Below are positions 15 through 36,546 of a stretch of DNA of 40,742 nucleotides, piece after piece. The notes beneath the pieces were generated by a model, which was not told the DNA's origin, ran no database searches, and worked only from the letters and a program-made list of their open reading frames with translations. Positions within the stretch are counted from its first letter, which is position 1. Each line of letters starts with the position of its first letter. Position numbers and translations under genes: made by a program. The stretch is from NCBI GenBank assembly GCA_041688535.1, contig JBDNIB010000297.1:1-40742 (forward strand). The letters run 5' to 3'. Origin of the DNA: Prosthecobacter sp. (lineage in GTDB: Bacteria > Verrucomicrobiota > Verrucomicrobiia > Verrucomicrobiales > Verrucomicrobiaceae).

Positions 15-581
15 GGCCCCACCGGCGAAACCGGCCCCGCTGGCATCAGCACCTTTGGTGCCGACGGCCCCACCGGCCCCGCCTGGCCGTTCGATCCCAC
101 CTATCAGACCTTTCCCCAGGGCGACGGCGCGCCCGGCCCCACCGGCCCCACCGGCCCCGATGGCGACCCCACCAAAACCGCCCTCCTGCCCACCACGCGC
201 GGCATCGTCGCGCTGCACGCGCTCGAAGGCGAGGAAGCACTTTTCAAGGACGTCATCACTCTACCGATTCCGCCGCACGGCTTCGCCAGCGCCGACGTCT
301 GCCACATCTTCCGCGAGTGCTGCGAGCCCGGCTCCCTCTTCGTTCAGTTCGCCCACCTCCCCGGCTGCCCCGCGTTGATTGGCACCAGCATCCGCGCCAC
401 CGCCGGCCGCCTCTGCGTGGACGTCCGCCTCCATCCCGCCCCCCGCCGCGAAGTCCTCGCCACCCTCACGATCTGCGGCATCCGCAAGGGCTTCGCCACC
501 GCCAAACTCATGCCCTGCACCCGCGCGCAAATGACCGCCAACAACCAATTCTACACCCGCGCCCATGTTCCGAGTTTGTAG
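15..581 (+). CDS. Collagen-like tail protein 1, 3' part (joins 40251..40742; about 352 aa total)
   Basis: Gly-X-Y repeats continue in frame from 40742 to position 15; C-terminus TRAQMTANNQFY matches paralogs 2 and 3; its stop TAG is part of a REP GTAG. Confidence 0.85.
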   Translation, partial: GPTGETGPAGISTFGADGPTGPAWPFDPTYQTFPQGDGAPGPTGPTGPDGDPTKTALLPTTRGIVALHALEGEEALFKDVITLPIPPHGFASADVCHIFRECCEPGSLFVQFAHLPGCPALIGTSIRATAGRLCVDVRLHPAPRREVLATLTICGIRKGFATAKLMPCTRAQMTANNQFYTRAHVPSL

Positions 582-641
582 TCCCGGCTTCAGCCGGTCC
601 GGTTCCGCCCGTGAAATCCACCGACGGCGCGGAGCTTGCAC

Positions 642-869
642 TCAGCGCTGTGGTCTGGGGGGGGTGGGCGGAGTCTTCGCCTTTGCGATTTTTAGCCGGT
701 CAATCACTCCCTCCATTGTTACAGCGAGGGTGTCACCAGCGTTATTTTCCCATTTCCAAAGGGCGCGTGGAGAGACATCGAGGATGTTTGCCGCCTCGGC
801 TTGCGTCAGGCCGAGGCGGGCGCGGTGCATTTTGAGCGCGGCTGCAAATGATAGGCGGTCGAGCGACAT
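642..869 (-). CDS. XRE-family HTH transcriptional regulator
   Basis: LKMHRARLGLTQAEAANILDVSPRALWKWE motif; ATG 869 abuts the upstream stop. Confidence 0.8.
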   Translation of the reverse strand: MSLDRLSFAAALKMHRARLGLTQAEAANILDVSPRALWKWENNAGDTLAVTMEGVIDRLKIAKAKTPPTPPRPQR

Positions 870-870
870 G

Positions 871-1074
871 TCAGTGACGCAGGCCGACGTGGGCTGGTGT
901 GCAGGCAGGGGTGTTTTTTTCGGCATCCATTACCTCGGCCTGCGTGTAGGAACTGCCGCATCCGTCACACTCATACATTTCGCGGGCGCAAAAGGTCAGG
1001 TGTTTGTTGCCGTCGTGGTTTTTTCCGCAGGTGACTGCGGTGGTGGGCGTGGTTGCGTTTTTCGGTGTGTTCAT
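871..1074 (-). CDS. Small Cys-rich hypothetical protein
   Basis: ORF with CxxC; middle gene of a minus-strand trio. Confidence 0.55.
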   Translation of the reverse strand: MNTPKNATTPTTAVTCGKNHDGNKHLTFCAREMYECDGCGSSYTQAEVMDAEKNTPACTPAHVGLRH

Positions 1075-1098
1075 TGGTTTTTTTTGTGTGGGGTGTTA

Positions 1099-1359
1099 TT
1101 AGCGGGTGCGGAGTTGGTATTGGCGGCCGGCGGCGGGGCACATCGGAGCATCTTCGATCCAGCCCTCGGACTGCGCCGCTTCGGCTTGCCCGTCTTCGGT
1201 TGCGGCGAAGCGGGACTGGAGTTCATCGAGGACGCTATCAGCGCGCGAGTCGCTCATGTTGATCGGCATCTTGCCGAGGACCGCTTTGACGCCATGGCTC
1301 GCGTGGCTGCCGAGTCCGAGTTTGCGAGTGAGTTGGGTGATTTGTGCTTCGTTCTTCAT
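1099..1359 (-). CDS. Hypothetical protein (moron, probably leaderless)
   Basis: ATG 1359 lies 6 nt after a -10-like hexamer. Confidence 0.6.
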   Translation of the reverse strand: MKNEAQITQLTRKLGLGSHASHGVKAVLGKMPINMSDSRADSVLDELQSRFAATEDGQAEAAQSEGWIEDAPMCPAAGRQYQLRTR

Positions 1360-1365
1360 GGGTTG

Positions 1366-1418
1366 ACATTCGCGCATTGTGCGAAGCGGCGCAAGAACTA
1401 TTTTCGCACAATGTGCGA
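1366..1418 (-). promoter_or_regulatory. Promoter with two palindromic operators
   Basis: TCGCGCA-T-TGTGCGA (1370-1384) and TCGCACA-A-TGTGCGA (1404-1418); minus-strand TTGCGC-17-GAATGT. Confidence 0.65.
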
Positions 1419-1425
1419 TTTGCCT

Positions 1426-1481
1426 CCCAGCTCCCCGCCCCAAGCCCCAAGCTCCCTGCCCCATGCCCCATGCCCCATGCC
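1426..1481 (+). repeat. Heptamer tandem repeat (CCA[A/T]GC[C/T]-like, 8 units)
   Basis: Direct reading; same family at 7608-7649 and 33591-33611. Confidence 0.85.
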
Positions 1482-1514
1482 CGCCCCGGCGGCCGCGCAT
1501 AACCCCACCCCACC

Positions 1515-2591
1515 GTGCCCCTAGCCCCGCCCAGCCCCAGCTACCGTTTTCGCCGCACGCGCGGACTGCTGCGCATGCGCGACCTCGCGGCCTTCCTCAC
1601 CTGGCTCGCCCCTCGCCTCGGCTTCCGCCTCGCCTCCGACGAATTCACCCGCGTCTCAGAGAGCGGCGGCCGCCTCACCATCTCCCGCGACCGCCCCGGC
1701 CCCATCGGTCCGCGTGGCCTCACCGGCCTCACCGGCGCGGACGGCCTCACCGGCGCGGACGGCCCCCCCGGTGCCAACGGCGGCGTTTTCCCCGGCCCCG
1801 CCGGCCCCGCCGGCCCCGCTGGCCCGCTCGGTCCCACCGGCGAGCGCGGAGATCGTGGCCCCAAGGGTCCCAAGGGGCCGCAGGGGCTGCTCAAAGGTCC
1901 GCAGGGACCCATCGGCCCCGCGCAAACAGCCCCCGGCCCCGACGGCCCCATCGGCGATCCCGGCCCGAATAAAGGCCCGCCTGGCAACCTCGGCCCAAAC
2001 GGTCCCCCTGGAGCCGATGCCGGACCAGCCCCCGCTGGCCCCCCCGGCGATTACGGCGATTCAAACTACACCTATTTCGGCGACGAATACGCCGCCCCCG
2101 GCGCCCCCGGCCCCACCGGCGAACCCGGCGACAAATTCGCCATCATGCCCGTCTCGTCTTCGTTCGTAGTCCCGCCTTCAGGCGGTCCGGCTTCTTCGTT
2201 CGTAGTTCCGCCTTCAGGCGGTCCGGCCTCCGCGTTCGTCGGCCTCTACGCCATCGAGGCCCCCGATGTGATCTTCGAGTCCGTCCTCCGCCTCACCCTC
2301 CCGCCCCGCACCCGGCAGCACATCCTCCTCCTCGATCCCCGCTACCTCCACGCCGTCGAGTGCGACACCCTCCACCTCACCAGCGTCGTCAGCTCCCTGC
2401 CCATCCCCATCCGCGCCACGCTCAACGCCGCCGGCATCGTCCTGGCTCTCCCCTCGCAGCGGCTGCCCATCACCATCTGTCTCACCGTGCAGGCCATCCG
2501 GCGCGGCATGCGTGATCGCCGTTGGCAGACCTTCACGCCCGCGCAAATGCACGCCAACAACCAATTTTACGCCTGCGCCACTGCTGCCTGA
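1515..2591 (+). CDS. Collagen-like tail protein 2 (in-frame REP dimer)
   Basis: [10 protein letters not shown]-motif, GXY repeats, C-terminal [12 protein letters not shown]. Confidence 0.85.
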
Positions 2592-2593
2592 TC

Positions 2594-3670
2594 ATGCTCA
2601 TTTCGCCCAAGCCCAAGCCGTACAGACTGCGCAGCACGCGCGGTCTCGCGCTCATGAGTGATGCCATCGCCTACGTCCGGCATTTGTCGCAGCACCTCGG
2701 CACCTTCCGCATCGATTCCAGCGAAATCACCGCCAGCTCCGCCAGCGAATTCGGCGGCAGCATGGACATCACGCGCACCACTGATCGCCCCGGTCCCGTC
2801 GGCCCCCCCGGCCCCGCCGGCCCCCCCGGCCCCGCCGGCGATCCCGGTTTTTCCGGCCTCGGCGGTGCCGATTTTTTCGGCCCGGCCGGAGAAGCGGGAG
2901 AAGCCGGTCCAGCCGGCACTCTCCCCGGCGACAAGGGCCCCCTCGGCGCTACCGGCATCATCGGCGAAGACGGCGGCGCAGGCCCCATCGGTGCCGACGG
3001 CCCTATCGGCCCGCTCACCCCCGGCCCCACCGGCTATCCCGGTCCCAATTCCGGCGCGCTCGGCCCCGATGGCCTCACCGGCCCCACCGGCGCGGATGGC
3101 ATCGAGACCCCCGGAGCACCTGGCCCCCCCGGCCCCGCCCGCGATGTGTACGTCACGTACTCCCCCCTCGGCTCCAGCCCCGACGGCCCCCCCGGCCCCG
3201 CCGGCGCCAAACTAGCCATCATCGAAATCCCCGCGTTCGTAGTTCCGGCTTCAGCCGGTCCGGCCTCCCAGTTCGTAGTCCCGGCTTCAGCCGGTCCGGC
3301 CTCCCAGTTCGTCGCCTTCCACGTCGCCGAAAGCCCCCGCTGCATGTGGCTAGACCACCTCCACGCCGTCCTCCCCGCGCATCGCACGAGCCTCGAAATC
3401 CCCATCGATCCGCTCTGGCTCGAATGCCTCGACAGCGCCGAGTCCATCGAAATCCTCAGCCTCCACATCCACGGCGGCGACGTCACCGCAGAGCTCCGCG
3501 ATTCCTCCCGCATCATCCTGCACGCCACCTCTGCCACGCGCCATTCACGCGCCGCCGTCATCACCGTCGCCGGTATCGCGCGCGCTCACAGCGGCCGCCG
3601 CTTCCCGCAGTTCACCGCCGCGCAAGCGGCCCGCAACGCCGCTTTCTGGTCATCCTCACTCAACCATTAA
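2594..3670 (+). CDS. Collagen-like tail protein 3 (in-frame REP dimer)
   Basis: ATG 2594; [10 protein letters not shown]-motif, GXY repeats, C-terminal TAAQAARNAAFW. Confidence 0.85.
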   Translation: MLISPKPKPYRLRSTRGLALMSDAIAYVRHLSQHLGTFRIDSSEITASSASEFGGSMDITRTTDRPGPVGPPGPAGPPGPAGDPGFSGLGGADFFGPAGEAGEAGPAGTLPGDKGPLGATGIIGEDGGAGPIGADGPIGPLTPGPTGYPGPNSGALGPDGLTGPTGADGIETPGAPGPPGPARDVYVTYSPLGSSPDGPPGPAGAKLAIIEIPAFVVPASAGPASQFVVPASAGPASQFVAFHVAESPRCMWLDHLHAVLPAHRTSLEIPIDPLWLECLDSAESIEILSLHIHGGDVTAELRDSSRIILHATSATRHSRAAVITVAGIARAHSGRRFPQFTAAQAARNAAFWSSSLNH

Positions 3671-4536: not shown

Positions 4537-4644
4537 CTGCACGAGCGGCCCCTCATGAGTTCGTAGTTCCGGCTTCAGCCGGTCCGGCCTGAAAAATCCT
4601 TCCCAATCCCCTCCCAATCTGCGGATTGACACCAGCACCACCCC

Positions 4645-6640: not shown

Positions 6641-7075
6641 ATGAAACGCATCCTCCTCCTGCTTTGTTTTGTAGTCCCGGCTTTAGCCGGTCTGTCTCCC
6701 GCCGCCGACATCCAGCTCGGCGACAACGGCACCGTCACGCGCGATAGCATCGCACTCAACAACGTCTCTGATGCCCTCCTCAATCAGCAGCTCACCAGCC
6801 GCGAGTTCATGGATGCCATCAAAGCAAAATTCACCGCGCATGCCGCCGCCCTGGCCGCTGCGCAAACCGCGCAAACCAACGCCGAAGCAAAGCTCGAAAC
6901 TCTCATCGCAGGAGCCAAGCTAGCGATCAGCAAAAATACCAGCGCCGAACGCCTCGCCGCCGCTGCCGAAATGCTCGCGAAAGTTCAGGCCACCGCCGCC
7001 GACGCAGAGCGCGATGAACTGGAAAAACAAGCCGCTGAAATCGCCGCAAAAATCCAAGCCCTCCCCCGCCCATGA
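6641..7075 (+). CDS. Exported coiled-coil protein (possible i-spanin)
   Basis: Hydrophobic N-terminus (includes an in-frame REP), Ala-rich coil, in lysis cluster. Confidence 0.5.
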   Translation: MKRILLLLCFVVPALAGLSPAADIQLGDNGTVTRDSIALNNVSDALLNQQLTSREFMDAIKAKFTAHAAALAAAQTAQTNAEAKLETLIAGAKLAISKNTSAERLAAAAEMLAKVQATAADAERDELEKQAAEIAAKIQALPRP

Positions 7076-7560: not shown

Positions 7561-7607
7561 CCCCCCGTCTCCGTTCGTAGTTCGGGCTTCAGCCCGTCCG
7601 CTCCGCC

Positions 7608-7877: not shown

Positions 7878-7980
7878 TCCGCCTTCCCCCGTTCGTAGTC
7901 CCGGCTTCAGCCGGTCCGAATTCCGAACTCCCAATCTGCGCCAATCTGCGAAATCTGCGGATTGACAATTGCCCTCCAGC

Positions 7981-8542: not shown

Positions 8543-8714
8543 CGTCACTCAGCCGTCACTCGCGCCCCCGGCCACTTGTTTTTCCAAGCAACAACTCGCC
8601 TTCGATTCTCGTAGGGGTCGCCACTGCTTGCTGGGTGGCTGCGGTGCGGATGGAGACTCGGAGAGGCTGGAAAAGACCTGAAAAGACTTGTTGAGCGTCA
8701 CTCAAACGGCACTC
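8543..8714. other. attP: core 8601-8623 is a tRNA 3' end (likely tRNA-Glu) with arm-type repeats
   Basis: TTCGATT-CTCGT-AGGGGTC-G-CCA; CG[T/G]CACTC pairs at 8543/8554 and 8696/8707 (11-nt spacing); GAAAAGAC x2 at 8670/8680; adjacent to integrase. Confidence 0.8.
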
Positions 8715-8724: not shown

Positions 8725-9846
8725 ATGAAATTGCGGATGCGAACGAACAAAGGGGGATCGACGTCCTGGCAGCTCGACTATGGGGTGATCGATGGGGAGC
8801 GGCGGCGGGTGGCTTTTTTGGATCGAGCAGCAGGCGAGCGGGCGCTGGCGGGGGCACGGGATGCGCGGCGGCGGCTGGGGACGATGGGCGTGGCGGCTTC
8901 GCCGCTGGAGATGGCGGAATTCCTGGCTGTCAAGGAAAGATTGCGGGCGTCGGGGACGTCGATTTTGGAGGCGACGGAATTTTTCATGCGGCAGGGCTTG
9001 CGGGTGAAAAATCCTGTGCTGGTGCCGGTGCTGGTGGAGGATTTTATCTGGAGCCGGATCGAGCTGGGGCGGGATGCGCGGACGATCCAGACGTATCGGC
9101 ATGTGCTGCGGTCGCTGGCGAGGGCGTTTCCTTTGCGCATGGCGCACGATTTAACGCGCGATGACATCAAGGTGTGGCGACGGGGGCAGGGCTGGTCTGC
9201 GACGACGCAGAACAAGGCGCTGGGGCATGTGCGGGGCTTGATGAAATGGGCAGTGGCGGAACGGCAGGTGGGGCAGGATCCGTGTGCGGGGATGGAGGCG
9301 GTGTCGGTGATGAGAGAGGAGATCGCGGTGCTGTCGCTGCGGGCGTGTGAGTCGCTGCTGAAGACGGCGTTGGTGGTGCCGCGTTTTATGCCTTTTTTGT
9401 GCCTCGGATTGTTTCGCGGAATGCGGCGGGCTGAGCTGGAGCGGCTGCGATGGGAGGAGGTCGATTTTGCAAGCGGCGAGGTGATCGCGGCGGCGAAAAA
9501 AGTGAAGACAAGGCGGCGGCGCGTGGTGGAGATCTCGCCGCAGATGCGGGCATGGATCACTGCGGCGGGATGGACGGTGGAGATGATGCGGTCGGGGCCG
9601 GTGGCACCGGCGAACCTGAAGGTGAGGTGGCCGCAGTTTTGGCGGCTGGCGAAGCTGTCTGCCTGGCCGCACAATGGGCTGCGGCATACGTTCGCGAGTA
9701 TGCATTATGCGGCCTATGGCGATGAGGCGGCGCTGCAGGCGATTTTGGGGCAGAAATCGGCGGATGTGCTGCACACGAATTATCGGGCGTTGAAGACGAA
9801 ACGGGAGGCGGAAAAGTTTTTTGGTTTGATGCCGCCGGGGAAGTAG
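8725..9846 (+). CDS. int: Tyrosine integrase
   Basis: GMRRAEL, K, HNGLRHTFAS, LGQ...TNY catalytic motifs. Confidence 0.95.
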   Translation: MKLRMRTNKGGSTSWQLDYGVIDGERRRVAFLDRAAGERALAGARDARRRLGTMGVAASPLEMAEFLAVKERLRASGTSILEATEFFMRQGLRVKNPVLVPVLVEDFIWSRIELGRDARTIQTYRHVLRSLARAFPLRMAHDLTRDDIKVWRRGQGWSATTQNKALGHVRGLMKWAVAERQVGQDPCAGMEAVSVMREEIAVLSLRACESLLKTALVVPRFMPFLCLGLFRGMRRAELERLRWEEVDFASGEVIAAAKKVKTRRRRVVEISPQMRAWITAAGWTVEMMRSGPVAPANLKVRWPQFWRLAKLSAWPHNGLRHTFASMHYAAYGDEAALQAILGQKSADVLHTNYRALKTKREAEKFFGLMPPGK

Positions 9847-9851: not shown

Positions 9852-9876
9852 AACTGTCAAGGATTACTTGACAGTT
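9852..9876. repeat. Perfect 10-bp inverted repeat with 5-nt spacer
   Basis: AACTGTCAAG-GATTA-CTTGACAGTT. Confidence 0.85.
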
Positions 9877-9887: not shown

Positions 9888-10095
9888 CGGACGGGCTGAA
9901 GCCGGGACTACGAACGGGGGAGGCGGACGGGCTAAAGCCCGAACTACGAACGAAGAAGCGGACCGGCTGAAGCCGGGACTACGAACGGGGGAGGCGGACG
10001 GGCTAAAGCCCGAACTACGAACGAAGAAGCGGACCGGCTGAAGCCGGGACTACAAACGGGGGAGCCGGACCGGCTGAAGCCGGGACTACGAACTC
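9888..10095 (-). repeat. Tandem array of six GTAG-REP hairpins (35/36-nt period)
   Basis: CTAC at 9908, 9944, 9979, 10015, 10050, 10086, between convergent genes. Confidence 0.95.
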
Positions 10096-10109
10096 GGCAG
10101 GGGGCCGTT

Positions 10110-10394: not shown

Positions 10395-10483
10395 CCGCAG
10401 ATTGGGAGTGGATTTGGAAGGATTTGTTGAGTGGCGGAGTGTATTTTAACCGGTGAAGGCGGCGGTGGCGTCGATGATGTTGG

Positions 10484-11175: not shown

Positions 11176-11247
11176 ATTTCAGACGGGCTGAAGCCCGAAC
11201 TACGAGCAACGAACCAACCAACCAACCAACACACGGAGGCAAACCGC

Positions 11248-13025: not shown

Positions 13026-13693
13026 GCAATCGACTTTTTCGGGTGTCGTGCCCGGTGGAGCGGACGGTGCCGCGCCGGGTGCCGAGGTCGTGGAGACGGA
13101 CGGTGCTGGATGTGCTGGTGCTGCTGGCGCTGCTGCTGCTGGTGGCCTGGCTGTGCCGCTGCGTGGGAGCGGCGGCGGGGGCGAGTGGAGGCCAGCGGCT
13201 GGGGGCTGGCGGCTATGTGGTGGCGACGCTGGATCTGCGGCCGCTGATCGCGGCGGCGGTGGAGCATTGGTGGGGCTGGCTGGCGGCGGCGGGGCTGCTG
13301 GCGGTGCTGGTGGGGCTGGCGGAATGGCAGCAGCGGCGGCAGGCGGCGTTCGAGCTGGAGCTGGCAGCTTATGTGCGGCGGATCCGTGGGGGCGGTGCGC
13401 GGGGAGTCGGACCGGCTGAAGCCGGGACTACGAACGCGGAGGGAGTGCCGGCGGAGGATGTGGGGCGCATTTTGCGCGCGTGTGCAGAGGAGTCGAGGGC
13501 GGTGGTGGAGCTGGTGAGACGGGCGGCGGTGGCGATGTCGGAGGATTATTATGGGTCGCTCCAGCAGGCTGAGCGGAAGACTGCGGCGGTGATTTTGTGC
13601 ATTGAGAATTTGCTGGTGCGGCTGGATGCTGATCCGGACCGCCTGAAGGCGGGACTACGAACACGGCAGCCGGACGGGGAGGTGGTGTCGTGA
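13022..13693 (+). CDS. Membrane protein with two in-frame REPs
   Basis: Two TM segments; GPAEAGTTN and [10 protein letters not shown] peptides. Confidence 0.65.
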   Translation: MSNRLFRVSCPVERTVPRRVPRSWRRTVLDVLVLLALLLLVAWLCRCVGAAAGASGGQRLGAGGYVVATLDLRPLIAAAVEHWWGWLAAAGLLAVLVGLAEWQQRRQAAFELELAAYVRRIRGGGARGVGPAEAGTTNAEGVPAEDVGRILRACAEESRAVVELVRRAAVAMSEDYYGSLQQAERKTAAVILCIENLLVRLDADPDRLKAGLRTRQPDGEVVS

Positions 13694-14345: not shown

Positions 14346-14635
14346 ATTATAATGATGAGGCTGGAATGAAGCATGAGCCGGCCGGGCGGACGCGGCTGCG
14401 GCCGGGGAAATATCGGCTGTATTGTGCGGGGCCGACGGGTGTGATCATGGATCTGTGCATCGAGATCGCGACGCGGACGACGTTTGAACTGTCGCTGGAT
14501 GATGAGCTGCTGGCGGAGCTGCTGGTGGTGACGAGCCTGGGCTGCGGGGTGGTGGAGGGCGAGTTGCACAAGGCACAGCGCCCGGACCGCCTGAAGGCGG
14601 AACTACGAACACGGATGGGAGGGCCGGAGTTATGA
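14342..14635 (+). CDS. Hypothetical protein (in-frame REP)
   Basis: ATGA coupling, GGAGG RBS. Confidence 0.6.
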   Translation: MNYNDEAGMKHEPAGRTRLRPGKYRLYCAGPTGVIMDLCIEIATRTTFELSLDDELLAELLVVTSLGCGVVEGELHKAQRPDRLKAELRTRMGGPEL

Positions 14636-14967
14636 TGCTGCGTGCGCAGGTGGAGGTGGAGATCGCGGGGGTGGTGTGCGAGCACGAGGCGATGCGCGAA
14701 GCGCTGCATGAGATCGAGCGGCTGTTCCCTGGGGCGCATGAGCTGACGCTGGGAGTGCGGCAGGCGATGATCGGCGCGATGTCGCGGGTGAGTGGGATCC
14801 GGGTGCTGCTGGGGGCGGCGACGATGTGCGGGGAGCCGGACCGGCTGAAGCCGGGACTACAAAACGAAGAAGCGGACCGGCTGAAGCCGGGACTACGAAC
14901 GGCGATGCGGCTGTCGCTGCATCGGGCTGGGGATGATTTTTTGGATGAGAAGGAGGGCTATGAATGA
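14632..14967 (+). CDS. Hypothetical protein (in-frame REP dimer)
   Basis: ATGA coupling; PDRLKPGLQNEEADRLKPGLRT. Confidence 0.6.
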   Translation: MMLRAQVEVEIAGVVCEHEAMREALHEIERLFPGAHELTLGVRQAMIGAMSRVSGIRVLLGAATMCGEPDRLKPGLQNEEADRLKPGLRTAMRLSLHRAGDDFLDEKEGYE

Positions 14968-16795: not shown

Positions 16796-18725
16796 TTTTT
16801 TAAATGACAAACCAAAGACAAATATGAGCCAAGAACTATCGAAAACCGGGGACGTAAAAATCCAGTATATCAAGCAGGACGCGCTGCATGGCAGCCCGAC
16901 GAATCCGCGCAAACATTTCGCGGCGGAGCCGCTGGAGGAACTGAGCCGGAGCATCGAGGAGCATGGGATCCAGATGCCGCTGCTGTGCCGCGTGTCGCCG
17001 CATGAGGAAGGCAAATTTGAGATCGTGGCGGGTGAACGCCGCTGGCGTGCCAATGGGCTGCTGCTGGAGCGCCTGGCTAGCGCTGGGCGCGATGAGATGT
17101 ATGAGCGGCGGCTGCTGCTGCCGGTGATCCTGCGCGTGCTAGACGATGCAACGGTGCTGGAGCTGCAATTGATCGAGAATCTGCAACGGACGGACCTGAC
17201 TGCGTTGGAGGAGGCCGCTGGGTATCAGGCATTGCTGGACCTGCCAGGGAAGGCGTACACGCCAACGATCATCGCGCAAAGAGTGAGCAAAAACGTGCAA
17301 ACGGTGCGGAACAAACTCCGAATGCTCGGCGCGCCGCAGGTGCTGCAGGATGCGCTGGCGGATGCGCTGGCGGGGATCAGCCCGCTGCATCTGGTGCTGG
17401 TGTCCAAGGTCGCGGGTGCGCAAAATCGCGAGCAGTGCGCGCGCGAAATCATGCAGGGTGAGTTTGATTATGAGCTGCAAAAAAAAGTGCCGATGTCCGC
17501 CCGCGAAACTGCGGTGCATATCACGGAAAAATACCGGCGGCCGCTCAAGGGGGTGGCGTGGGATCTGGCGGATGCGGAGCTGGTGCCGGAAGCGGGGGCG
17601 TGTGTGACGTGTCCGCACTTCGCGCAGCACGCGGCGACGCAGGATGAAGAGCTGGCTGCAGAGCTGGGCGGTGCGCGCGGGCAAACACAACCGCTCACGT
17701 GTATGGATCCGGCGTGCCACCAGCGCAAGCAAGCGGCGGCATTTCGGCGGTGTGAAGCGGCGGCGAAAGAAGGGGTGGTGACAGTGATGAAACCGAAGGA
17801 GGCGGCGGCGATCATGAGCGCGTCGGGCATCATGCACTGGAACGCAAAATGGGTGAAGCTAGACGACAAGCCGGGCCATGCAGTGACCGGACACTACGAT
17901 GCCAGCAAGCTGCCGACCTGGCGCGTGCTGATAGGTGACAGGCTGCCGCCTGGCGCGCTTACAGTGGCGAACACAGAGCTGGGCGGGATCATCGAGCTGG
18001 TGCTGCTGGCGGATGCGATGACGGCGGCGCAGGGCGATGCGACACACGGCGAGCTGTTCCAAAAAATGCCGCCGAGCGGGAAGAAGGAGCTGACGGAAGA
18101 ACAGGCCAAACAGAAAGAAAAGGAAGTGTTTGCGGGGAAGGTGATGGCGCGGGAGAAAAACTGCCTGCTGCAGCATTTGTTCGATAGCGCGATGGCGAAG
18201 GGGCTGGATGCCGATGGCGGCCTGGCGGTGCTGGATTGCCTGCTGCATGAGGCGGGCATGGAGGGCAATCGGCTGATCTGTAGCTGGCAGAAGCTGGAGC
18301 CTGCGGCGGTCAAAAAAGGCGACGAGCTGAGCCAGGGACACTATCGCGCGGCGATCATGACGAGCCTGCGGGCGCGTGATGCAGGCAAGCCGGAGATCGA
18401 CGCGATGATCATGATCGCTGGTCTGGCCAAATGGGTGAAGGTCTATGGTCAAAGCATCAGCAGCCTGGGATCGCTGCAGGAGTATTTCGGCTTTGATAAG
18501 CGCACGATCACGGCGCTGGCGACGGCTGAGGTGCGGGCTGAAATGGCGGCGAAGGCGGCGAAGAAAAAGCCAGCGGTAGCGGTGAAAAATAACAGCGTGG
18601 ACCCGGTGGAGGTGAGTGCGGAGAAGGAGGCGGGAAAAACGGCGGCGGCGGATGCACGAGCGAAAGATGGGGACGGGCTGAAGCCCGAACTACGAACGAA
18701 GAAAACGAAAGTAACACAATCATGA
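16788..18725 (+). CDS. ParB/RepB/Spo0J-family protein
   Basis: NPRKHF, GERRWRA, ENLQRTDL, HTH, Cys cluster; in-frame REP at C-terminus. Confidence 0.9.
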   Translation: MTDFLNDKPKTNMSQELSKTGDVKIQYIKQDALHGSPTNPRKHFAAEPLEELSRSIEEHGIQMPLLCRVSPHEEGKFEIVAGERRWRANGLLLERLASAGRDEMYERRLLLPVILRVLDDATVLELQLIENLQRTDLTALEEAAGYQALLDLPGKAYTPTIIAQRVSKNVQTVRNKLRMLGAPQVLQDALADALAGISPLHLVLVSKVAGAQNREQCAREIMQGEFDYELQKKVPMSARETAVHITEKYRRPLKGVAWDLADAELVPEAGACVTCPHFAQHAATQDEELAAELGGARGQTQPLTCMDPACHQRKQAAAFRRCEAAAKEGVVTVMKPKEAAAIMSASGIMHWNAKWVKLDDKPGHAVTGHYDASKLPTWRVLIGDRLPPGALTVANTELGGIIELVLLADAMTAAQGDATHGELFQKMPPSGKKELTEEQAKQKEKEVFAGKVMAREKNCLLQHLFDSAMAKGLDADGGLAVLDCLLHEAGMEGNRLICSWQKLEPAAVKKGDELSQGHYRAAIMTSLRARDAGKPEIDAMIMIAGLAKWVKVYGQSISSLGSLQEYFGFDKRTITALATAEVRAEMAAKAAKKKPAVAVKNNSVDPVEVSAEKEAGKTAAADARAKDGDGLKPELRTKKTKVTQS

Positions 18726-19291: not shown

Positions 19292-20386
19292 ATGGACATT
19301 ATCGACCGAGCACGGGCCTGTGTGGCTACGCGACCGCCTGCCATCCAAGGCAGCGGTGGGAACGCGACGACGTTTAGCGTGGCGTGCCTGCTAGTGTGGG
19401 GCTTTGGTCTGGAGCCTGATCAAGCGCTGCCGCTGCTGATGGAGTACAGCGCACGATGCGCGCCGCCGTGGGCGGAGAAGGAGATGGCGCGGATGTGCAG
19501 GAACGCGCTGAATTTTGCGCATGACAAACCGCGTGGCTATATGCTGGGCGAGGGGACGCATGAGATGGGGAGCAGCCGACCAATCGCAATCGCTGCACCG
19601 AGCTACCAGCCGCCGTCGCGCATGACGTTTGATCTGGACTCGCTGCGGACGGTGCAACCTCCGCAACCTATTGATGAGGCGTGGCTGGCACAGCGATCGC
19701 CGATCATGCTGGAGGGCTGTGATGCGGCGGGTTTTTTGCGGCACGCGTTTGAGTTTGAAGACAAGGTTCTCGTCTTCACGAAATTCGCGTCGCAAGGGCA
19801 ATATATGTTTTGGCGGGGGCAGTCGTATCGACTGGCTGAGCGCCCTGGCGTGGCAGCGGTGCGTGCTCCGCTGCCACGGGGCGGACCGGATGGCGTGTGG
19901 TATCTGTCGCAGCCGACAACGGGCAAGTGGGAGACTAATCCGCGCGCGGCTGGTGGACCGAAAGCAAGCCGAAGATCGCAGGAGAGTATCGCGTGCTGGA
20001 GGCACCTGGTGATCGAGGCGGACCCGGTGGAGGAGCTAAAAAAAGACCCGGTGAAGCTAGCTGAATTTGAGCGGCTGTGGCTGGGATTTTTGGCGGCGTT
20101 GGAACTGCCGGTGAAGGCCATCTATACGAGCGGAGGGAAGTCTACACACGCGCTGGTGCTGCTGCCGTGCTCGCACAAGGGAATGTTTGACTCGATGATG
20201 AAAATGGTGGTGCCGTTGTTCTCGAAACTGGGGGCTGATCCGCGTGCGCTGCGGGCGGTGCAGCTCACGCGGCTGCCGGTGTGCATGCGCGGCGATAGGA
20301 GGCAGCGATTGCTGTACCTAAATCCAGCGCCAGAACTCGGTGTGAGTATCTATAACATGCCGCCCGTCGAGAGGAGACGGGCGTGA
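19292..20386 (+). CDS. Putative DNA primase (AEP/RepB-like)
   Basis: PAIQGSGG N-domain, IEAD, YTSGGKSTH, LTRLP; upstream of helicase. Confidence 0.7.
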   Translation: MDIIDRARACVATRPPAIQGSGGNATTFSVACLLVWGFGLEPDQALPLLMEYSARCAPPWAEKEMARMCRNALNFAHDKPRGYMLGEGTHEMGSSRPIAIAAPSYQPPSRMTFDLDSLRTVQPPQPIDEAWLAQRSPIMLEGCDAAGFLRHAFEFEDKVLVFTKFASQGQYMFWRGQSYRLAERPGVAAVRAPLPRGGPDGVWYLSQPTTGKWETNPRAAGGPKASRRSQESIACWRHLVIEADPVEELKKDPVKLAEFERLWLGFLAALELPVKAIYTSGGKSTHALVLLPCSHKGMFDSMMKMVVPLFSKLGADPRALRAVQLTRLPVCMRGDRRQRLLYLNPAPELGVSIYNMPPVERRRA

Positions 20387-22242
20387 AGGTGGATGCTATC
20401 GACGACGTGGCGGCGGTGCTGCGATCTGCATTTGAGGCGGCGGATGTGCCGGTGCCGGATGAGGCGGCACTGACAGTGCCGATGCTAAATGTGAATCTGC
20501 CGATTGACGATCTGGCGAATCGCGTGGCGGATTTGCTCAAGGCCAGCGATGGCAGATGGGGACTGTTTCGGGCTGACGATACGATAGTGACGGTGGATGA
20601 AGCGCGGGGCGGGAAAAAGGCGATGACGGCGCGTGGGTTTCGCACCTGGCTGCCAGGGGTGCGCGGCGTTTTTCCAGTCGCGAAATGGTATGAGAGCGGT
20701 GAGACGGATGAGCATGGCAACAAGGTCAAGAAACCGATCAAGGGCGAGCTGACGAAGGATCAAGCGGAGACCATGCTGGATGTGAATGGCGTGCTGATGG
20801 CGAAGCTGCCGCGGCTGAATGCGATCAATGCGGTGCGGCTGCCGGTGCTGGATGCGGTAGAGCTGGATGAGCGAGGCAATGCGCGGATGCGACTGCTGCA
20901 GCATGGCTACGATGCGCCGACGGGCATCTATACCTGCCGGGGTGGCGTGGACTACAGCGACGCGATGGATTTTGACGAGGCGGTGAATTACTTCTGGGAG
21001 CTTTTTCGCTGGTTCGGCTGGCGGACGCCGCAGCGTGATTTTGCGATTCATTTGTCGGCGATTCTGACCATGTATGGGCGGGGGATTTATGCCGGGAAAG
21101 CGCCGATGCATTTCTACAACGCGAATATTCAGGAGTCGGGCAAAACGACGCTGGCGAGCTATGTGACCTGGCTGACGCATGGTTCGATGCAGACGCGGCC
21201 GCTGCTGCCGGATGCGGAGGACAAGCTCATGGAGGTGCTGAATACAGCAGCGCTGCATGGCAGCCCGTATGTGTTTTTCGACAATGTTGACTGGGGGAGT
21301 GACCCGGTGAAAACAGTGCTGCTCGATGAATGGCTCTCCAACAGAGAGCGTGTGTTTCGCAAGCTGGGCGGCAACAACGAAGGGGCAGTGAAACTGCGAG
21401 CGATGACGCTGGGGACAGGCAACAACACGACGCTGAGCGCCGATTTGCAGCGGCGTTCTTTGATCGTGGATCTGCTCAATCGGCAGGCTGGTGCGGATCG
21501 CGAATTGCCTAAAAGCGTGCGGCTGCTCGATGATGCGTTTTTCGAGAGTGAGAAGAATCGGAGCGAGGGGCTGGCGGCCGCCTGGGCGTTGATCCGCGAC
21601 TGGGACACAGATGGCCGGCCGGCGTGGCCGCACAAGGAACTTGGCAGTTTCAACATGTGGTCTCGCGTGATTCCTGCCGTGGTTTTGCACGCGGGAAAAA
21701 AGGGCGCGAGCGCGAATTGGAACTGCATGGTGGTGAGCCCGAATGAGAATATTGGCGACAAGGACAGCGTGGAGTTTCGGAAGCTGGCGGAGCTGGCGCT
21801 GGCGGAGTTTGGTCCTGGAGAGGATCGCGTGATGCGCGATACATTTGAAATCACGGTGGCGCAGTTTGCTGGCGTGGCGCGGCGGCATGCGGTAGCGACG
21901 CATGCGCTTTGGCCCCAGAAAGATATCGAGTCCGTGATGCAGACTGAGGGGCAGTCGGGGGGATGGAAGGCGGCGGCGACAACGCTGCCGATGGCGGATG
22001 CGCTGGAGGACGTGGACGCTTGGGCAGGCGGGTCCACGGGCGATGAGATGGGGCGGAAGAGGAGCGCTAGCGAATGGATGTCGCCAAAGTCGCGAAGTGC
22101 CTTTGGGAACGCGCTCAAGAGCAAACTGAACGAGCTTTATTTTCACGGGCCAGATGGGCGGGAGTATGAGCTCCAGCATTGCGGCCAGGTGACTCCGGCG
22201 CGATACAATGTCGAGCGGGTCAAGGTGGCGAAGCGGGCCTGA
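20383..22242 (+). CDS. Putative replicative helicase/P-loop NTPase
   Basis: Walker A ESGKTT, Walker B VFFDN, GTGNN, DLQRR. Confidence 0.7.
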   Translation: MKVDAIDDVAAVLRSAFEAADVPVPDEAALTVPMLNVNLPIDDLANRVADLLKASDGRWGLFRADDTIVTVDEARGGKKAMTARGFRTWLPGVRGVFPVAKWYESGETDEHGNKVKKPIKGELTKDQAETMLDVNGVLMAKLPRLNAINAVRLPVLDAVELDERGNARMRLLQHGYDAPTGIYTCRGGVDYSDAMDFDEAVNYFWELFRWFGWRTPQRDFAIHLSAILTMYGRGIYAGKAPMHFYNANIQESGKTTLASYVTWLTHGSMQTRPLLPDAEDKLMEVLNTAALHGSPYVFFDNVDWGSDPVKTVLLDEWLSNRERVFRKLGGNNEGAVKLRAMTLGTGNNTTLSADLQRRSLIVDLLNRQAGADRELPKSVRLLDDAFFESEKNRSEGLAAAWALIRDWDTDGRPAWPHKELGSFNMWSRVIPAVVLHAGKKGASANWNCMVVSPNENIGDKDSVEFRKLAELALAEFGPGEDRVMRDTFEITVAQFAGVARRHAVATHALWPQKDIESVMQTEGQSGGWKAAATTLPMADALEDVDAWAGGSTGDEMGRKRSASEWMSPKSRSAFGNALKSKLNELYFHGPDGREYELQHCGQVTPARYNVERVKVAKRA

Positions 22243-22412: not shown

Positions 22413-22620
22413 CCTCCCGCGCCCTCCCGACCTCCTGTTTTTGTTAGGTCAGGGGGCGCAACCTCCCCGACCTATGGGGGAAATTGAGGAATTGACCGCG
22501 TTTAGATTTCGGCGGATGCCATTGACCTCCCCGACCTATGGGCAAGAGGATAGCACCTGTAGCGGCTGGAAGCCTTGATTTACCAAGGATTTTGGGAGGT
22601 AAGGGAGGTAAGGGAGGTAT
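22413..22620. other. Candidate replication origin (iterons)
   Basis: ACCTCCCCGACCTATGGG at 22461 and 22525; inverted GGGAGGTA x3 at 22594-22620; non-coding, directly after primase/helicase; near skew switch. Confidence 0.65.
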
Positions 22621-28818: not shown

Positions 28819-28945
28819 CCGTTCGTAGTTCCGGCTTCAGCCGGTCCGGTTTCCCCGTTCGTAGTTCGGGCTTCAGCCCGTCCGCCTCCCCCGTTCGTTT
28901 GACACCCCGCCCCCATCGCCGCAGTCACCTCTACCTCCCCTCTCC

Positions 28946-32724: not shown

Positions 32725-32810
32725 CCCTGTTCGTAGTTCGGGCTTCAGCCCGTCCGCCTCCCCCGTTCGTAGTCCCGGCTTCAGCCGGTCCGGTCAGCCC
32801 CTTCCACCGC

Positions 32811-33563
32811 ATGAAACAACTTCCACCCGCGCCGTATTATGACCGCGACGGCATCACTCTTTACCACGGCAACTGCCGCGAGATACTACCGCACCTGCAG
32901 CCCGTTGACGCCGCCGTCACCGACCCGCCCTACAACGAAACTAATCTTGAATGGGACACCTGGCCTGTCGGCTGGCCTTCGCTGCTCGCGCCACTGACCA
33001 ACTCGTTTTGGTGTTTCGGCTCGTTGCGGATGTTCTGGGATCGGCGCGATGAGTTTGGCGCGTGGAAACTTGCGCAGGACATCGTTTGGGAAAAACACAA
33101 TGGCAGCGGGATTGCCTCAGATCGGTTCCGCCGCGTGCATGAACTGGCGGTTCATCTTTATCAGGGGGATTGGGCGGCGCTCCATAAGGCCGTCCCGCGC
33201 GTTGGCGAGCATCGCGCCACAAAGATGATGCAACGCGGCAAGACGCCCCACCTCGGAACAAAAGGACAACTTGGAATACAAGAGGGCCAAAAGCTCATGC
33301 GCTCAGTCATCTACGCCAACAGTTGTCAGGGCTACGCAGTCAACGAAACGCAAAAACCGGAGGCGCTGATTTCGCCCCTGCTGGAATATTGCGTTCCTCC
33401 CGGCGGCAGCGTGCTGGATTGCTTTGCTGGTAGTGGCACCGTGCTCGCCGTCGCGCGCGCTCAGGGGAAGCGCGCCATCGGCATTGAGCAGCGCGAAAGC
33501 CAATGCATCGAGATCGTCAAGCGGCTCTCACAAGGCGATCTTTTTCAGGATCCCCGTTCGTAG
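32811..33563 (+). CDS. Beta-class N6-A/N4-C DNA methyltransferase
   Basis: TDPPY, TQKP, VLDCFAGSGT; bounded by 41-bp REP direct repeats. Confidence 0.9.
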   Translation: MKQLPPAPYYDRDGITLYHGNCREILPHLQPVDAAVTDPPYNETNLEWDTWPVGWPSLLAPLTNSFWCFGSLRMFWDRRDEFGAWKLAQDIVWEKHNGSGIASDRFRRVHELAVHLYQGDWAALHKAVPRVGEHRATKMMQRGKTPHLGTKGQLGIQEGQKLMRSVIYANSCQGYAVNETQKPEALISPLLEYCVPPGGSVLDCFAGSGTVLAVARAQGKRAIGIEQRESQCIEIVKRLSQGDLFQDPRS

Positions 33564-33659
33564 TCCCGGCTTCAGCCGGTCCGGTCAGCCCCATGCCCCA
33601 CGCCCCATGCCCCCCGCCCTCATTTGACACGCCCCCTCCATCGTCACACCGCCTCACCC

Positions 33660-34182: not shown

Positions 34183-34623
34183 ATGCCTGACACCCCCGAT
34201 CCATTTGTTGAGCCAATCATCGAGCACGGCGTCAAGGTCTCCGACCTCGCAGATGAGGACGGCGCGCTCATTCTCAGCCTCGACCTCTCTCCGATGCGTG
34301 ATGCCGTCATGCAAAAAGGCGCCTCCCGCGCGACCGAATACGTCCGCTACGAAGACCCGCGCATCGAAGGCGAAATGAGCTTGCGCCCGCGCCGCAACGC
34401 GCTGGGCCTCCCCTACGGCCTTGGCAATGCCCATCCCGGCAGTGCCGTCACCGATCTCGTCAATCTGCCGGTCAACAGCAACATCCACGGCTTCCGCATC
34501 AGCGAGTCCGCCACCATCTGCCTGAACAACCCCAAGCAAACGCGCGGCGACGACGGGCTGCAGATCACTCAGCCGTTCGTCTATTATCCGTTCGTCCTTT
34601 CGGCCGCTGCCCTGGCCGCATAA
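34183..34623 (+). CDS. Putative tail tube protein
   Basis: Size, synteny before chaperone/TMP, followed by a terminator. Confidence 0.45.
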   Translation: MPDTPDPFVEPIIEHGVKVSDLADEDGALILSLDLSPMRDAVMQKGASRATEYVRYEDPRIEGEMSLRPRRNALGLPYGLGNAHPGSAVTDLVNLPVNSNIHGFRISESATICLNNPKQTRGDDGLQITQPFVYYPFVLSAAALAA

Positions 34624-34744
34624 AAGCTACCCAACAAAATAGGCCCGCGCTGGACGGGCACCAGCCGCAAGGCTAGCTCGCGCGCGAGCATCCAGCACCC
34701 CCTTCCATCCATCTCTATGTCCCCGTGTCGTGTTGCACGTTCCG

Positions 34745-34791
34745 CGTCGCATGCCTGCCTCTCCCCTGGCAGCGCATGCGGCGTTTTTTTT
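34745..34791 (+). terminator. Intrinsic terminator
   Basis: CGTCGCATGC...GCATGCGGCG stem followed by T8. Confidence 0.8.
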
Positions 34792-34849
34792 CGTCTCCCC
34801 CGTATTGTAGTCCCGGCTTCAGCCGGTCCGACTCTCCCCGCCTAACACC

Positions 34850-35629
34850 ATGAGCTGGACCACCAACAATCACAAAATTGCCGCCACGTTCTCCGGTTTA
34901 GGCTTCCGCGTCACCATCAACGAAACCGAAATCGTCGAGCTTGATAACTGGAAAAACCTTCGCTTCGAGGTCAGCGATAAATCGCTGCTGCATCCGCAGC
35001 TACCCTCGCGCGACGATCTCTATCGCGGCTGGAAAGAAGGCACGCTTAACAAGCTGGATCCCGATCATCCCTTCCTCTGCGGCTTCGCCGCCTGCCACAA
35101 TTTCGAGCAGATCATGCACATGCAGGCCACTGCCACCAGCTACCGCCTGCAGCGCGCAGCAGGCTCGCCGCTCTATCGCTACGAGGTCGGCATCGAAGAC
35201 TCGCGCTTGCAGCTCGCCCCCGCGCTACATGCCACCGTGGATCTCCCGCTCGCCGCCGCCGTCGCCGTCGCTGGTTTGCCCGTCATCAACATCGACGGCA
35301 ACCCCGGCCGCCGCCGCTATTTATTCCCCGACATGACGCTCGAATATCTGGACAACCCCACTGCCGCCGCCCTGCTTCCTGTCGCGCAATTCTTCCCCCG
35401 CATCTACCCGCGCAAACCAAACTTGCAGCTCGGCCTCACCCATCCGCAGCACCCCGTCGTGCAGGGCTACAACGCCGCGTACCACTACGCATCCATCCTC
35501 GGCCAGCTCAAACAAATCAACAAGCGCCTGCTCATCAAAGATCCTTTCAGCAACCGCCGCGCCCTCATCCCCGAAAACCCCAGCGCAAAACTAGAAAACG
35601 AAGTCCGCGACCACTTCCGCATCCCCTGA
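34850..35629 (+). CDS. Hypothetical protein (REP-bounded)
   Basis: 259-aa ORF with phage-like codon usage. Confidence 0.75.
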   Translation: MSWTTNNHKIAATFSGLGFRVTINETEIVELDNWKNLRFEVSDKSLLHPQLPSRDDLYRGWKEGTLNKLDPDHPFLCGFAACHNFEQIMHMQATATSYRLQRAAGSPLYRYEVGIEDSRLQLAPALHATVDLPLAAAVAVAGLPVINIDGNPGRRRYLFPDMTLEYLDNPTAAALLPVAQFFPRIYPRKPNLQLGLTHPQHPVVQGYNAAYHYASILGQLKQINKRLLIKDPFSNRRALIPENPSAKLENEVRDHFRIP

Positions 35630-35690
35630 TCCCCGTATTGTAGTCCCGGCTTCAGCCGGTCCGGTTCCCTCTTTTTGTGACCACCAACCA

Positions 35691-35954
35691 ATGCCGAAAA
35701 TGATCGAAATTTTACACAACTTCTTCGCCGGAATCACATTCGCGTTGGGCGTAACAGTCGGTGCAGTCCTCTGCCGCATCGCCAGCAAGGAAGGCCGCAC
35801 CGAAATGGTGGATACTGTGAAATCCAGCCATGAGCGAATCGAAGAACGGCTACGCATGAGCTTGAAATGCCATGAGCGGATAGCCGGTGCAATGGAGGCC
35901 ATAGCGCAAAAATCTGCTGGGAAGAACGCCGCTACCTGCGACGACCAACTTTAA
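35691..35954 (+). CDS. Small single-TM protein
   Basis: N-terminal TM; lower GC than flanks. Confidence 0.6.
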   Translation: MPKMIEILHNFFAGITFALGVTVGAVLCRIASKEGRTEMVDTVKSSHERIEERLRMSLKCHERIAGAMEAIAQKSAGKNAATCDDQL

Positions 35955-35958
35955 TTCC

Positions 35959-36198
35959 ATGTCCGCCAAACACTCCGCCCCGCCTTCTTCGTTCGTAGTT
36001 CCGGCTTCAGCCGGTCCGCTTCCCCTCACACTCCCATCTGGTTCTGCCTTCTGGCTGCTCTTCGAGCACATGAGCCGGCAGCACAATTTATCGCTGCTCG
36101 ACTCCGAGCTCGCCGATGTCTGCGCCGCCGTCGATCAGATGCGCGCGGCATGGGAGGCTAACGCGCTGCACAACCAACTCCCCGCCGCGCCCCTTTAA
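35959..36198 (+). CDS. Hypothetical protein (in-frame REP)
   Basis: SSFVVPASAGP peptide. Confidence 0.55.
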   Translation: MSAKHSAPPSSFVVPASAGPLPLTLPSGSAFWLLFEHMSRQHNLSLLDSELADVCAAVDQMRAAWEANALHNQLPAAPL

Positions 36199-36211
36199 TT
36201 CCACCCTCCTC

Positions 36212-36451
36212 ATGCTCACCTGGCACGACAACCACGCCACCATCATCCGCCTCACGGATGCCACCGAGCGCACCTGCGAGCTCGGTCATTTCGCCGGGCG
36301 CGGTCTGTGCTTTTTGAACATCCCCCGCTGTGATCATTCTGAGTTGCGCATCGACCCCCGCCTCGCCCGCGAACTCGCCACAATCCTCTCCCACTTCGCC
36401 GACTTCCGACAACTCCCCCATCGCCCCACCGCCCCCGACTACAGCATCTGA
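36212..36451 (+). CDS. Hypothetical protein
   Basis: ATG 36212; ends at a REP dimer. Confidence 0.55.
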   Translation: MLTWHDNHATIIRLTDATERTCELGHFAGRGLCFLNIPRCDHSELRIDPRLARELATILSHFADFRQLPHRPTAPDYSI

Positions 36452-36546
36452 GTTCGTAGTCCCGGCTTTAGCCGGTCCGCCTCCCCGTATTGTAGTCCCG
36501 GCTTGAGCCGGTCCGGTTCCCCTCACCCACACACCCCCACCCCACT

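What the first reader, a model, noticed from the sequence alone, without database searches (positions are those of the whole stretch)
578..36515. 32 GTAG-REP hairpins with covarying stems and perfect strand polarity, no transposase on the phage
Seen: GTAG-T[C/T]-stem-TC-stem-TCCG with three compensatory stems (CCGGCT/AGCCGG, CGGGCT/AGCCCG, CCGCCT/AGGCGG). 19 copies are on + (GTAG at 578, 2166, 2202, 3239, 3275, 4563, 6671, 7577, 7895, 28825, 28861, 32733, 32769, 33560, 34807, 35640, 35995, 36456, 36492) and 13 on - (all within 9888-18693), although most genes in both arcs are on +. None form inverted REPIN pairs. Known: GTAG plus hairpin is the substrate of RAYT/TnpA-REP HUH enzymes, which act on ssDNA. 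Inference: a host RAYT colonises the phage in trans. With an origin near 22.5 kb, every GTAG strand lies on the lagging-strand template.
Basis: partly seen in the sequence, partly recalled or inferred. Interest (0 to 1): 0.85.

Follow-up and report, generated by a model that had tools for sequence, protein, structure and literature searches.

The report
Strand-polar host REP hairpins on phage
A temperate phage carries 32 copies of its bacterial host's small repeat hairpin, all unpaired and flipping strand exactly where the phage's base skew flips (integration site and predicted replication origin), likely because the host's repeat-moving enzyme works on the strand left single-stranded during phage replication, which would give a natural read-out of how these repeats spread.

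Summary
Confirmed: 32 copies (19 +, 13 -) at 21 sites, none reversed. The window is a complete circular temperate phage in a Verrucomicrobiota MAG whose other contigs hold the same REP, mostly as inverted pairs. The cognate RAYT was found: it passes NCBIfam's cut-off, is flanked by this REP in relatives, and is partly present in the same MAG; it is not on the phage.

The GTAG strand is always the C-rich strand. Skew flips at attP (8.61 kb) and at a SaPI-like iteron origin candidate (22.4-22.6 kb). The rule recurs in other viral records (60 of 62 unpaired copies in skewed DNA) and in a sister REP with its own RAYT (61 of 65). Transcription, element composition and candidate target motifs do not explain it.

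Best reading (0.55): host RAYT copies single REPs on the lagging-strand template, with forks running from origin to att. Caveats: the skew sign is opposite to the host's; sites are shared with a 95%-identical relative; loss of one partner from inserted pairs remains a rival. New variant of a known kind.

The parts
578..601 (+). REP, single (overlaps the end of a collagen-type tail gene)
2166..2225 (+). two REPs head-to-tail (36 nt), in frame in collagen tail gene 1575-2591; a 24-aa insertion against G047
3239..3298 (+). two REPs head-to-tail, in frame in collagen tail gene 2594-3670; one copy in the 95% relative
4563..4586 (+). REP, single, intergenic
6671..6694 (+). REP, single, in frame near the start of ORF 6641-7075
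7577..7600 (+). REP, single, intergenic
7895..7918 (+). REP, single, intergenic; last + copy before att
8601..8623 (+). attP core matching the 3' end of host tRNA-Glu(TTC); cumulative GC skew minimum at 8610; REP polarity flips here
   Evidence: (17-mer in 80 of 104 other genus genomes)
8725..9846 (+). tyrosine integrase
9888..10089 (-). six REPs head-to-tail, period 35-36 nt, downstream of the integrase
11180..11203 (-). REP, single, in the repressor/early divergence region
13408..13431 (-). REP, single, inside a + strand ORF
13635..13658 (-). REP, single, near the 3' end of the same + strand ORF
14583..14606 (-). REP, single, at the 3' end of a + strand ORF
14837..14896 (-). two REPs head-to-tail, inside ORF 14632-14967
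18670..18693 (-). REP, single, at the 3' end of the ParB-like gene
19292..20386 (+). primase-like gene (PHROG DNA primase E 1e-6; atlas look-alikes RepB_primase/PriCT_1, a lead only)
20383..22242 (+). predicted D5/SF3-type helicase (Walker A conserved; model pLDDT 77; matches D5 and SaPI PriRep structures)
22430..22618 (.). origin candidate: ACCTCC at 22430, 22461, 22525 and inverted GGAGGT at 22595, 22604, 22613 around an A/T-richer core; skew maximum at 22678
28825..28884 (+). two REPs head-to-tail; the second has a different, compensated stem in the 95% relative
32733..32792 (+). two REPs head-to-tail; left border of a swapped methyltransferase cassette
33560..33583 (+). REP, single; near the right border of that cassette
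34807..34830 (+). REP, single, intergenic; empty site in G047
35640..35663 (+). REP, single, intergenic
35995..36018 (+). REP, single; two copies (+36 nt) in the 95% relative
36456..36515 (+). two REPs head-to-tail, intergenic

Best explanation
The 32 hairpins are the host's RAYT-associated REP, present on the phage only as single or head-to-tail copies on the C-rich strand, likely because the chromosomal RAYT, acting in trans, binds, cuts and re-joins them on the strand left single-stranded when predicted forks run from the 22.5-kb origin out to att (the lagging-strand template). Shown: REP identity, RAYT linkage, no RAYT on the phage, polarity, flip points, recurrence in other phages and in a sister REP-RAYT pair, and insertions against empty sites. 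Inferred: origin use, forks bounded by att (replication in place before excision, or a block at attP), a roughly 36-nt unit bounded by C|T cuts, and spread within the phage from a few founders. Turnover is slow; most copies are now tolerated residents of linkers and gene ends.
For: (1) Same REP in the host MAG: 83 exact copies outside the phage contig. Of 69 host clusters, 38 are inverted pairs and 2 are mixed triplets. (2) Cognate RAYT: NF047646 at 83 bits against a cut-off of 80; similar to E. coli TnpA-REP 4ER8. 23 of 30 RAYT loci are flanked by this REP and the other 7 by a sister REP. Its first 50 aa (74% identical) sit at a contig end beside a REP pair in this MAG. (3) Polarity recurs: G041 13 of 13, G131 12 of 12, G132 15 of 15 on the C-rich strand; 60 of 62 unpaired copies at |skew| >= 0.1 over 47 records; sister GTTG-CACGC REP 61 of 65, with none of 78 copies paired. 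(4) Not transcription: both arcs are mostly + genes, and G131/G132 have genes on both strands with uniform REP orientation. (5) Not composition: element odds between strands 1.02; candidate target motifs about equal on both strands (274 vs 313); host pair flanks not C-rich. (6) CT lies 7-12 nt upstream at 14 of 21 sites (background 25%) and 5-10 nt downstream at 13 of 21 (background 32%); RAYTs cut at C|T and recognise only the GTAG strand (PMC8266576). (7) Skew flips 9-43 nt from the start of the att core in 8 of 8 lambda-like phages; similar inverted repeats at the other flip in G042, G043, G047 (by eye). (8) IS200/IS605 relatives insert into the lagging template (PMC6006769, PMC3971601 passages).
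Against: (1) In host genome G117 the G-richer strand carries all 3 16S genes, so G-rich is likely the leading strand there. By that rule the phage's GTAG strand would be the leading template. The objection is softened because the phage's G-rich strand lacks the host's T excess (vs 60). (2) Host singles lean to the C-rich-type strand in this MAG (20 of 26) but not in two relatives (9 of 17 each). (3) No new insertion against the 95% relative; most G131/G132 sites that could be aligned are shared. (4) PMC3116915 argues that doublets are the mobile unit and singlets are dead remnants. (5) Inverted pairs occur in some viral records, e.g. G135. There are 2 and 4 exceptions in the two tallies, plus a G043 sister copy 350 nt past att. 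(6) Nothing here explains the roughly 50-fold density over the fragmented host assembly when kin carry 0-2 copies. (7) The records are related and were picked by the motif, so the counts are not independent trials.
Confidence: 0.55

Rival explanations
1. Purging rather than targeting: REPs arrive as inverted pairs, and the partner whose GTAG strand lies on the exposed (G-rich) strand is cut by RAYT or a hairpin nuclease and lost. The survivors lie on the protected strand.
For: Fits the usual chemistry in which the exposed strand becomes G-rich, and the host MAG lean of singles to the C-rich strand (20 of 26). Fits the lack of pairs on this phage and the stable positions, and the doublet model of PMC3116915.
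Against: No decayed partner at any of 21 sites at up to 5 mismatches. Head-to-tail arrays and phage-specific 3' ends (TCCG in 29 of 32) need copying of singles anyway. Intact pairs persist in some skewed viral records. It does not explain enrichment.
Confidence: 0.22
2. Co-option: the phage keeps the hairpins as polar signals on displaced or lagging ssDNA, for example priming sites for its own primase, like the ssi hairpins used by RSF1010 RepB'.
For: Primase look-alikes include RepB_primase clusters (score 0.96). 31 of 32 stems are perfect and compensated at shared sites. High density. RepB' recognises stem-loops (PMC4234260 passage).
Against: Kin with about 51% identical primase carry 1-2 copies of this REP (G042, G043), though G043 has 8 sister copies. 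The rule holds in G131/G132, where no homolog of this primase was found, and for two REP sequences tied to two RAYTs. Pfam gave no RepB_primase hit in 9 of 9 members.
Confidence: 0.12
3. The repeats are kept as direct-repeat crossover points for swapping gene cassettes; same-arc orientation avoids inversions.
For: A different methyltransferase lies between the 32733 and 33560 sites in the 95% relative, whose left REP is a hybrid of two stems.
Against: One case only. It does not explain the flip at att and origin, copies inside genes, or polarity in phages with 1-2 copies.
Confidence: 0.06
4. A by-product of transcription direction, base composition or assembly.
For: Orientation tracks GC skew exactly.
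Against: Gene direction is the same in both arcs; element odds 1.02; target motifs balanced; contigs of three runs bridge copies and attP; a separately assembled relative has the same orientations.
Confidence: 0.05

Closest known systems
Group-3-type REP/RAYT systems (Marinomonas REPtron Mb, Stenotrophomonas REPtron Sm; PMC8266576)
   Same: GTAG, 2 nt, a 5-bp perfect stem and a TTNA loop; a chromosomal RAYT flanked by inverted REP pairs; many copies across the host genome.
   Different: Here the REPs sit on a phage about 50-fold denser than on the host contigs, are never inverted pairs, and are strand-polar. RAYT group membership was not tested by a tree.
REPINs/BIMEs (PMC3116915)
   Same: Host copies are mostly inverted doublets.
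   Different: Phage copies are singles and head-to-tail arrays that stay intact rather than decaying.
IS200/IS605 single-strand transposons (IS608, ISDra2)
   Same: HUH chemistry on ssDNA hairpins with a guide tetranucleotide; replication-linked orientation bias (PMC3971601, PMC6006769 passages).
   Different: No transposase in the element and only one hairpin; the bias is on a phage replicon and is near-complete.
Intragenic GTAG repeats of Opitutus terrae and Rickettsia RPEs (PMC3733652)
   Same: In-frame insertions in genes of a verrucomicrobial host.
   Different: The word 'phage' does not occur in that paper's main text, and no passage seen treats strand polarity. Its consensus figure could not be seen, so identity with one of GTAG-1 to 24 is untested.
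SaPI pri-rep-ori module (PMC9371898)
   Same: Primase, a helicase modelled as SF3-type, then opposed iterons around an A/T-richer core directly downstream.
   Different: Found in a full lambda-like phage; origin activity untested; GC skew bounded by att.

Membership tests
REP (GTAG class) | Guide tetranucleotide 5' of a short hairpin | tested here: met
   32 of 32 GTAG; 31 of 32 perfect stems; folding
REP (GTAG class) | Multicopy in the host genome | tested here: met
   83 exact copies outside the phage; 72 of 104 other genus genomes match
REP (GTAG class) | Flanks a cognate RAYT gene | tested here: met
   23 of 30 RAYT loci; NF047646 above cut-off; partial gene beside a REP pair in this MAG
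REP (GTAG class) | Mostly extragenic | tested here: inconclusive
   21 of 32 intergenic on the phage; about half of host copies fall in long ORFs by a home-made gene caller
REP (GTAG class) | Cut by RAYT at C|T or C|A on ssDNA | not testable with these tools
   Only CT enrichment at the flanks
RAYT group 3 | Phylogenetic placement in group 3 | not tested
   No tree built; only the REP architecture matches
REPIN/BIME | Inverted REP pair | tested here: not met
   0 of 21 phage sites; met for host copies
IS200/IS605 element | Own tnpA between two hairpin ends | tested here: not met
   No RAYT hit on the window or the other phage records held at that point; Y1_Tnp hits in the MAG lie on other contigs
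IS200/IS605 element | Active strand on the lagging template | tested here: inconclusive
   True if forks run from the 22.5-kb iterons to att; skew sign opposite to host
ssi priming signal (RSF1010 type) | Hairpin recognised by the replicon's primase | not testable with these tools
   Atlas look-alike only
SaPI-type origin | At least two opposed iterons each side of an A/T-rich core, directly after rep | tested here: met
   3 + 3 hexamers starting 190-370 nt after the helicase stop; criterion from PMC9371898

The most novel reading that the evidence does not exclude
Verrucomicrobial temperate phages record in vivo that single REPs, not doublets, are copied by the host RAYT on the lagging template, and that these phages replicate outward from their origin to the att ends before excision. 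Their extreme att-bounded skew and polar REPs would then be a sequence signature of in-place prophage replication.
Probability: 0.35. Interest if true: 0.85.

Novelty: new variant of a known kind. Interest (0 to 1): 0.72.

Why it matters
How REPs spread is stated as unresolved in PMC8266576. On chromosomes the inverted pairs hide any strand preference. Phage-borne singles expose one, for two REP-RAYT pairs, and name the enzyme, substrate and strand to test. The REPs also link uncultured phages to a host genus. The skew flip at att in 8 of 8 related phages points to an unusual replication route. Ten full-text searches listed no title or abstract on polar REPs in phages or att-bounded skew; subscription papers are mostly outside that library.

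Tried and rejected
Y1_Tnp (PF01797) search: none of 4 own and 30 genus loci was flanked by this REP; the cognate RAYT was found instead from gaps between REP pairs. G115 REP clusters suspected to be prophages showed no homologs of this phage's genes apart from a collagen hit. Searches for close relatives by integrase, ParB and a tail gene gave only the 95% relative, present as both L025 and L157. Phage P4 and Akkermansia phage Moulinsart showed no usable skew, so they did not settle the sign. An RSF1010 record was not in the collections. A single-sequence helicase model failed (pLDDT 35) and was redone with an alignment. PDB sequence searches for primase and helicase found nothing meaningful. 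A third REP family had only 7 viral stretches in 3 contigs, in unskewed DNA, and was uninformative. No RNA holder was listed and all runs were contigs, so there is no coverage gradient. Earlier scan notes held nothing relevant. The 'paired' flag is loose and also removes some tandem copies, so counts of singles are conservative. Ten duplicate or near-identical records were dropped before the tally. Protelomerase and Mu-like readings were dropped: the tRNA-Glu att core and lambda-type terminase and portal fit an ordinary integrating phage.
Full report
Observation. Allowing 5 mismatches adds nothing in either direction. Stems are CCGGC 20, CGGGC 7, CCGCC 4 and one hybrid, folding as a 5-bp stem. 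The copies form 21 sites: 14 singles, six head-to-tail pairs and one six-copy array, period 35-36 nt. Eleven copies are inside reading frames.

The replicon. The window is the whole of contig C759 of a 72%-complete MAG and has a 14-nt terminal overlap that a relative spans. It encodes an integrase, ParB-like protein, primase, lambda-type terminase and portal, capsid and collagen tail proteins. Cumulative GC skew has its minimum at 8610 and maximum at 22678. Four-fold sites of + genes are 66% G and 16% C in the early arc, 20% G and 62% C in the late arc. Two - strand ORFs in the early arc follow the DNA strand, not the gene. The minimum falls in a core equal to the 3' end of tRNA-Glu(TTC), found in 80 of 104 other genus genomes: attP, and a host link. 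The maximum follows three ACCTCC and three inverted GGAGGT hexamers behind a gene whose model matches D5/SF3 and SaPI PriRep helicases. PMC9371898 (passages) describes SaPI origins with this layout. Every GTAG strand is the C-rich strand.

Host and enzyme. The other contigs hold 83 exact copies. With one mismatch allowed there are 69 clusters: 38 inverted pairs, 2 mixed triplets, 27 singles and 2 direct pairs. A RAYT lies between REP pairs in complete genome G117; it passes NF047646 and resembles E. coli TnpA-REP. Homologs occur in 43 of 104 genus genomes. Median REP count is 37 with the gene and 1 without (kin are not independent). Twenty-three of 30 fetched RAYT loci carry this REP and the remaining 7 carry a sister, GTTG-TT-CACGC. 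The MAG has the first 50 aa of the gene at a contig end beside a REP pair. None was found on the window or the other phage records then held.

Generality. Scans of IMG/VR gave 18 and 111 stretches (flanks fetched for 80 of the latter). G041 has 13 of 13 copies on the C-rich strand, all in its early arc. G131 and G132, related to each other but sharing almost no genes with this phage, have 12 of 12 and 15 of 15, with genes on both strands and nearly uniform skew. Over 47 records, after dropping 10 duplicates, 60 of 62 unpaired copies at |skew| >= 0.1 are on the C-rich strand. The two exceptions are in contigs of 39-41% GC; weakly skewed sites split 15 to 8. The sister REP gave 77 stretches: 78 copies in 44 contigs, none paired, 61 of 65 on the C-rich strand in skewed DNA and 6 of 13 in weak skew. 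In G043 it flips near att, with one exception 350 nt past it. Three of 7 phage-like MAG contigs carried 4 copies, all on the C-rich side. The skew minimum lies 9-43 nt from the start of an att-like core in 8 of 8 lambda-like phages, including G043 where the core is inverted. Prophages in G117, G051, G046 and G053 have no copy at up to 1 mismatch and little late-arc skew. True inverted pairs do occur in some viral records.

What does not explain it. Transcription. Composition of the element, odds 1.02. Candidate target motifs, 274 vs 313. Host flank bias. Assembly: contigs from three runs bridge attP and three copies, one run possibly being the source.

Filled and empty sites. Against G047 the pair at 2166 is a clean 24-aa insertion, and the 34807 site is empty. 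Against the 95% relative all shared sites are filled; copy number moves by about one unit at three sites, one stem is exchanged with compensation, and a methyltransferase between two REP sites is replaced. G131 and G132 share most alignable sites, often with swapped stems. The phage copies have their own 3' end, TCCG in 29 of 32, which suggests copying within the phage (inference). CT is enriched at both flanks (shared flanks make the sites not fully independent), in line with C|T cleavage in PMC8266576 (Introduction and passages).

Mechanism. RAYTs recognise only the GTAG strand as ssDNA (PMC8266576), and related IS200/IS605 enzymes use the lagging template (PMC6006769 and PMC3971601, passages). 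With forks from 22.5 kb to att on both sides, all 32 GTAG strands are lagging templates. With symmetric replication of the circle, 8 copies would break the rule, so the model needs forks bounded by att. Against it: in G117 all three 16S genes lie on the G-richer strand, the opposite sign, although the phage skew lacks the host's T excess. Host singles lean C-rich in this MAG (20 of 26) and not in two relatives (9 of 17 each). PMC3116915 (passages) treats singlets as remnants. I therefore give targeting 0.55, purging of the exposed partner 0.22, co-option as priming sites 0.12, cassette swapping 0.06 and artefact 0.05.

Comparison and novelty. The element meets the testable REP criteria, fails REPIN and IS200/IS605 membership, and works like the strand-specific IS200/IS605 system. 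In-frame GTAG repeats are known in O. terrae (PMC3733652, passages); its consensus figure and supplements were not seen and may list this family. RAYTs are rare on plasmids (PMC5581495, passages). bioRxiv 10.1101/2024.07.17.603846 (passages) cites a REPIN duplication rate of once per 100 million generations, which fits slow turnover. PMC4234260 (passages) supplied the RSF1010 comparison. Ten searches listed no report of polar REPs on phages. Verdict: a real feature, a new variant of a known kind, interest 0.72.

Noticed in passing
window 8601-8623 and 22430-22678; G041, G042, G043, G047, G133, G134, G135: Extreme two-arc GC skew that flips within 9-43 nt of the start of the att core in 8 of 8 related phages; purine/pyrimidine-like and opposite in sign to the host. 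May mark replication in place before excision.
   Followed up: partly
G043 (L043/L044), G132, and L361-L437: Sister REP GTTG-TT-CACGC-TTNA-GCGTG with its own RAYT paralog; 78 unpaired copies in 44 viral contigs, 61 of 65 on the C-rich strand in skewed DNA. Absent from this window.
   Followed up: yes
G131 and G132 (L262-L268): Related 57-62 kb phages with an integrase, a giant gene (4544 aa in G131) and nearly uniform skew; they carry further hairpin repeats, all on the same strand, clustered in hypervariable patches.
   Followed up: partly
window 32733-33583 vs L025:9986-11100: DNA methyltransferase cassette replaced by a different methyltransferase between two REP sites; the left REP of the relative is a hybrid.
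   Followed up: partly
window 18700-28800: 10 kb without REPs; the terminase region has almost no skew and is 77-82% identical to unskewed prophages (G117, G051, G046), suggesting a recent module swap.
   Followed up: partly
G000 contigs C33, C75, C632, C642: About half of host REP copies sit in frame inside long ORFs, for example a UvrA-like gene on C33 (name recalled from the translation).
   Followed up: partly
window 19292-20386: Primase with no Pfam hit; atlas look-alikes carry RepB_primase and PriCT_1.
   Followed up: partly
window 9852-9876: Perfect 10-bp inverted repeat just after the integrase stop, with TTGACA on both strands; possible operator or promoter.
   Followed up: no
window 1437-1476: C-rich heptamer tandem repeats on the C-rich strand in the late arc.
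   Followed up: no
window 3687-4253 and 5283-6599: 2OG-Fe(II) oxygenase beside the collagen tail genes (possible prolyl hydroxylase, inference) and a tail protein with a K1-lyase C-terminal domain.
   Followed up: no
G117:C1:1.89 Mb: dnaA lies in the middle of a skew arc, far from either switch.
   Followed up: no
G115 C2 and C3 (L133, L136, L139, L141): Repeated small collagen-like genes flanked by directly repeated REPs in a host chromosome.
   Followed up: no
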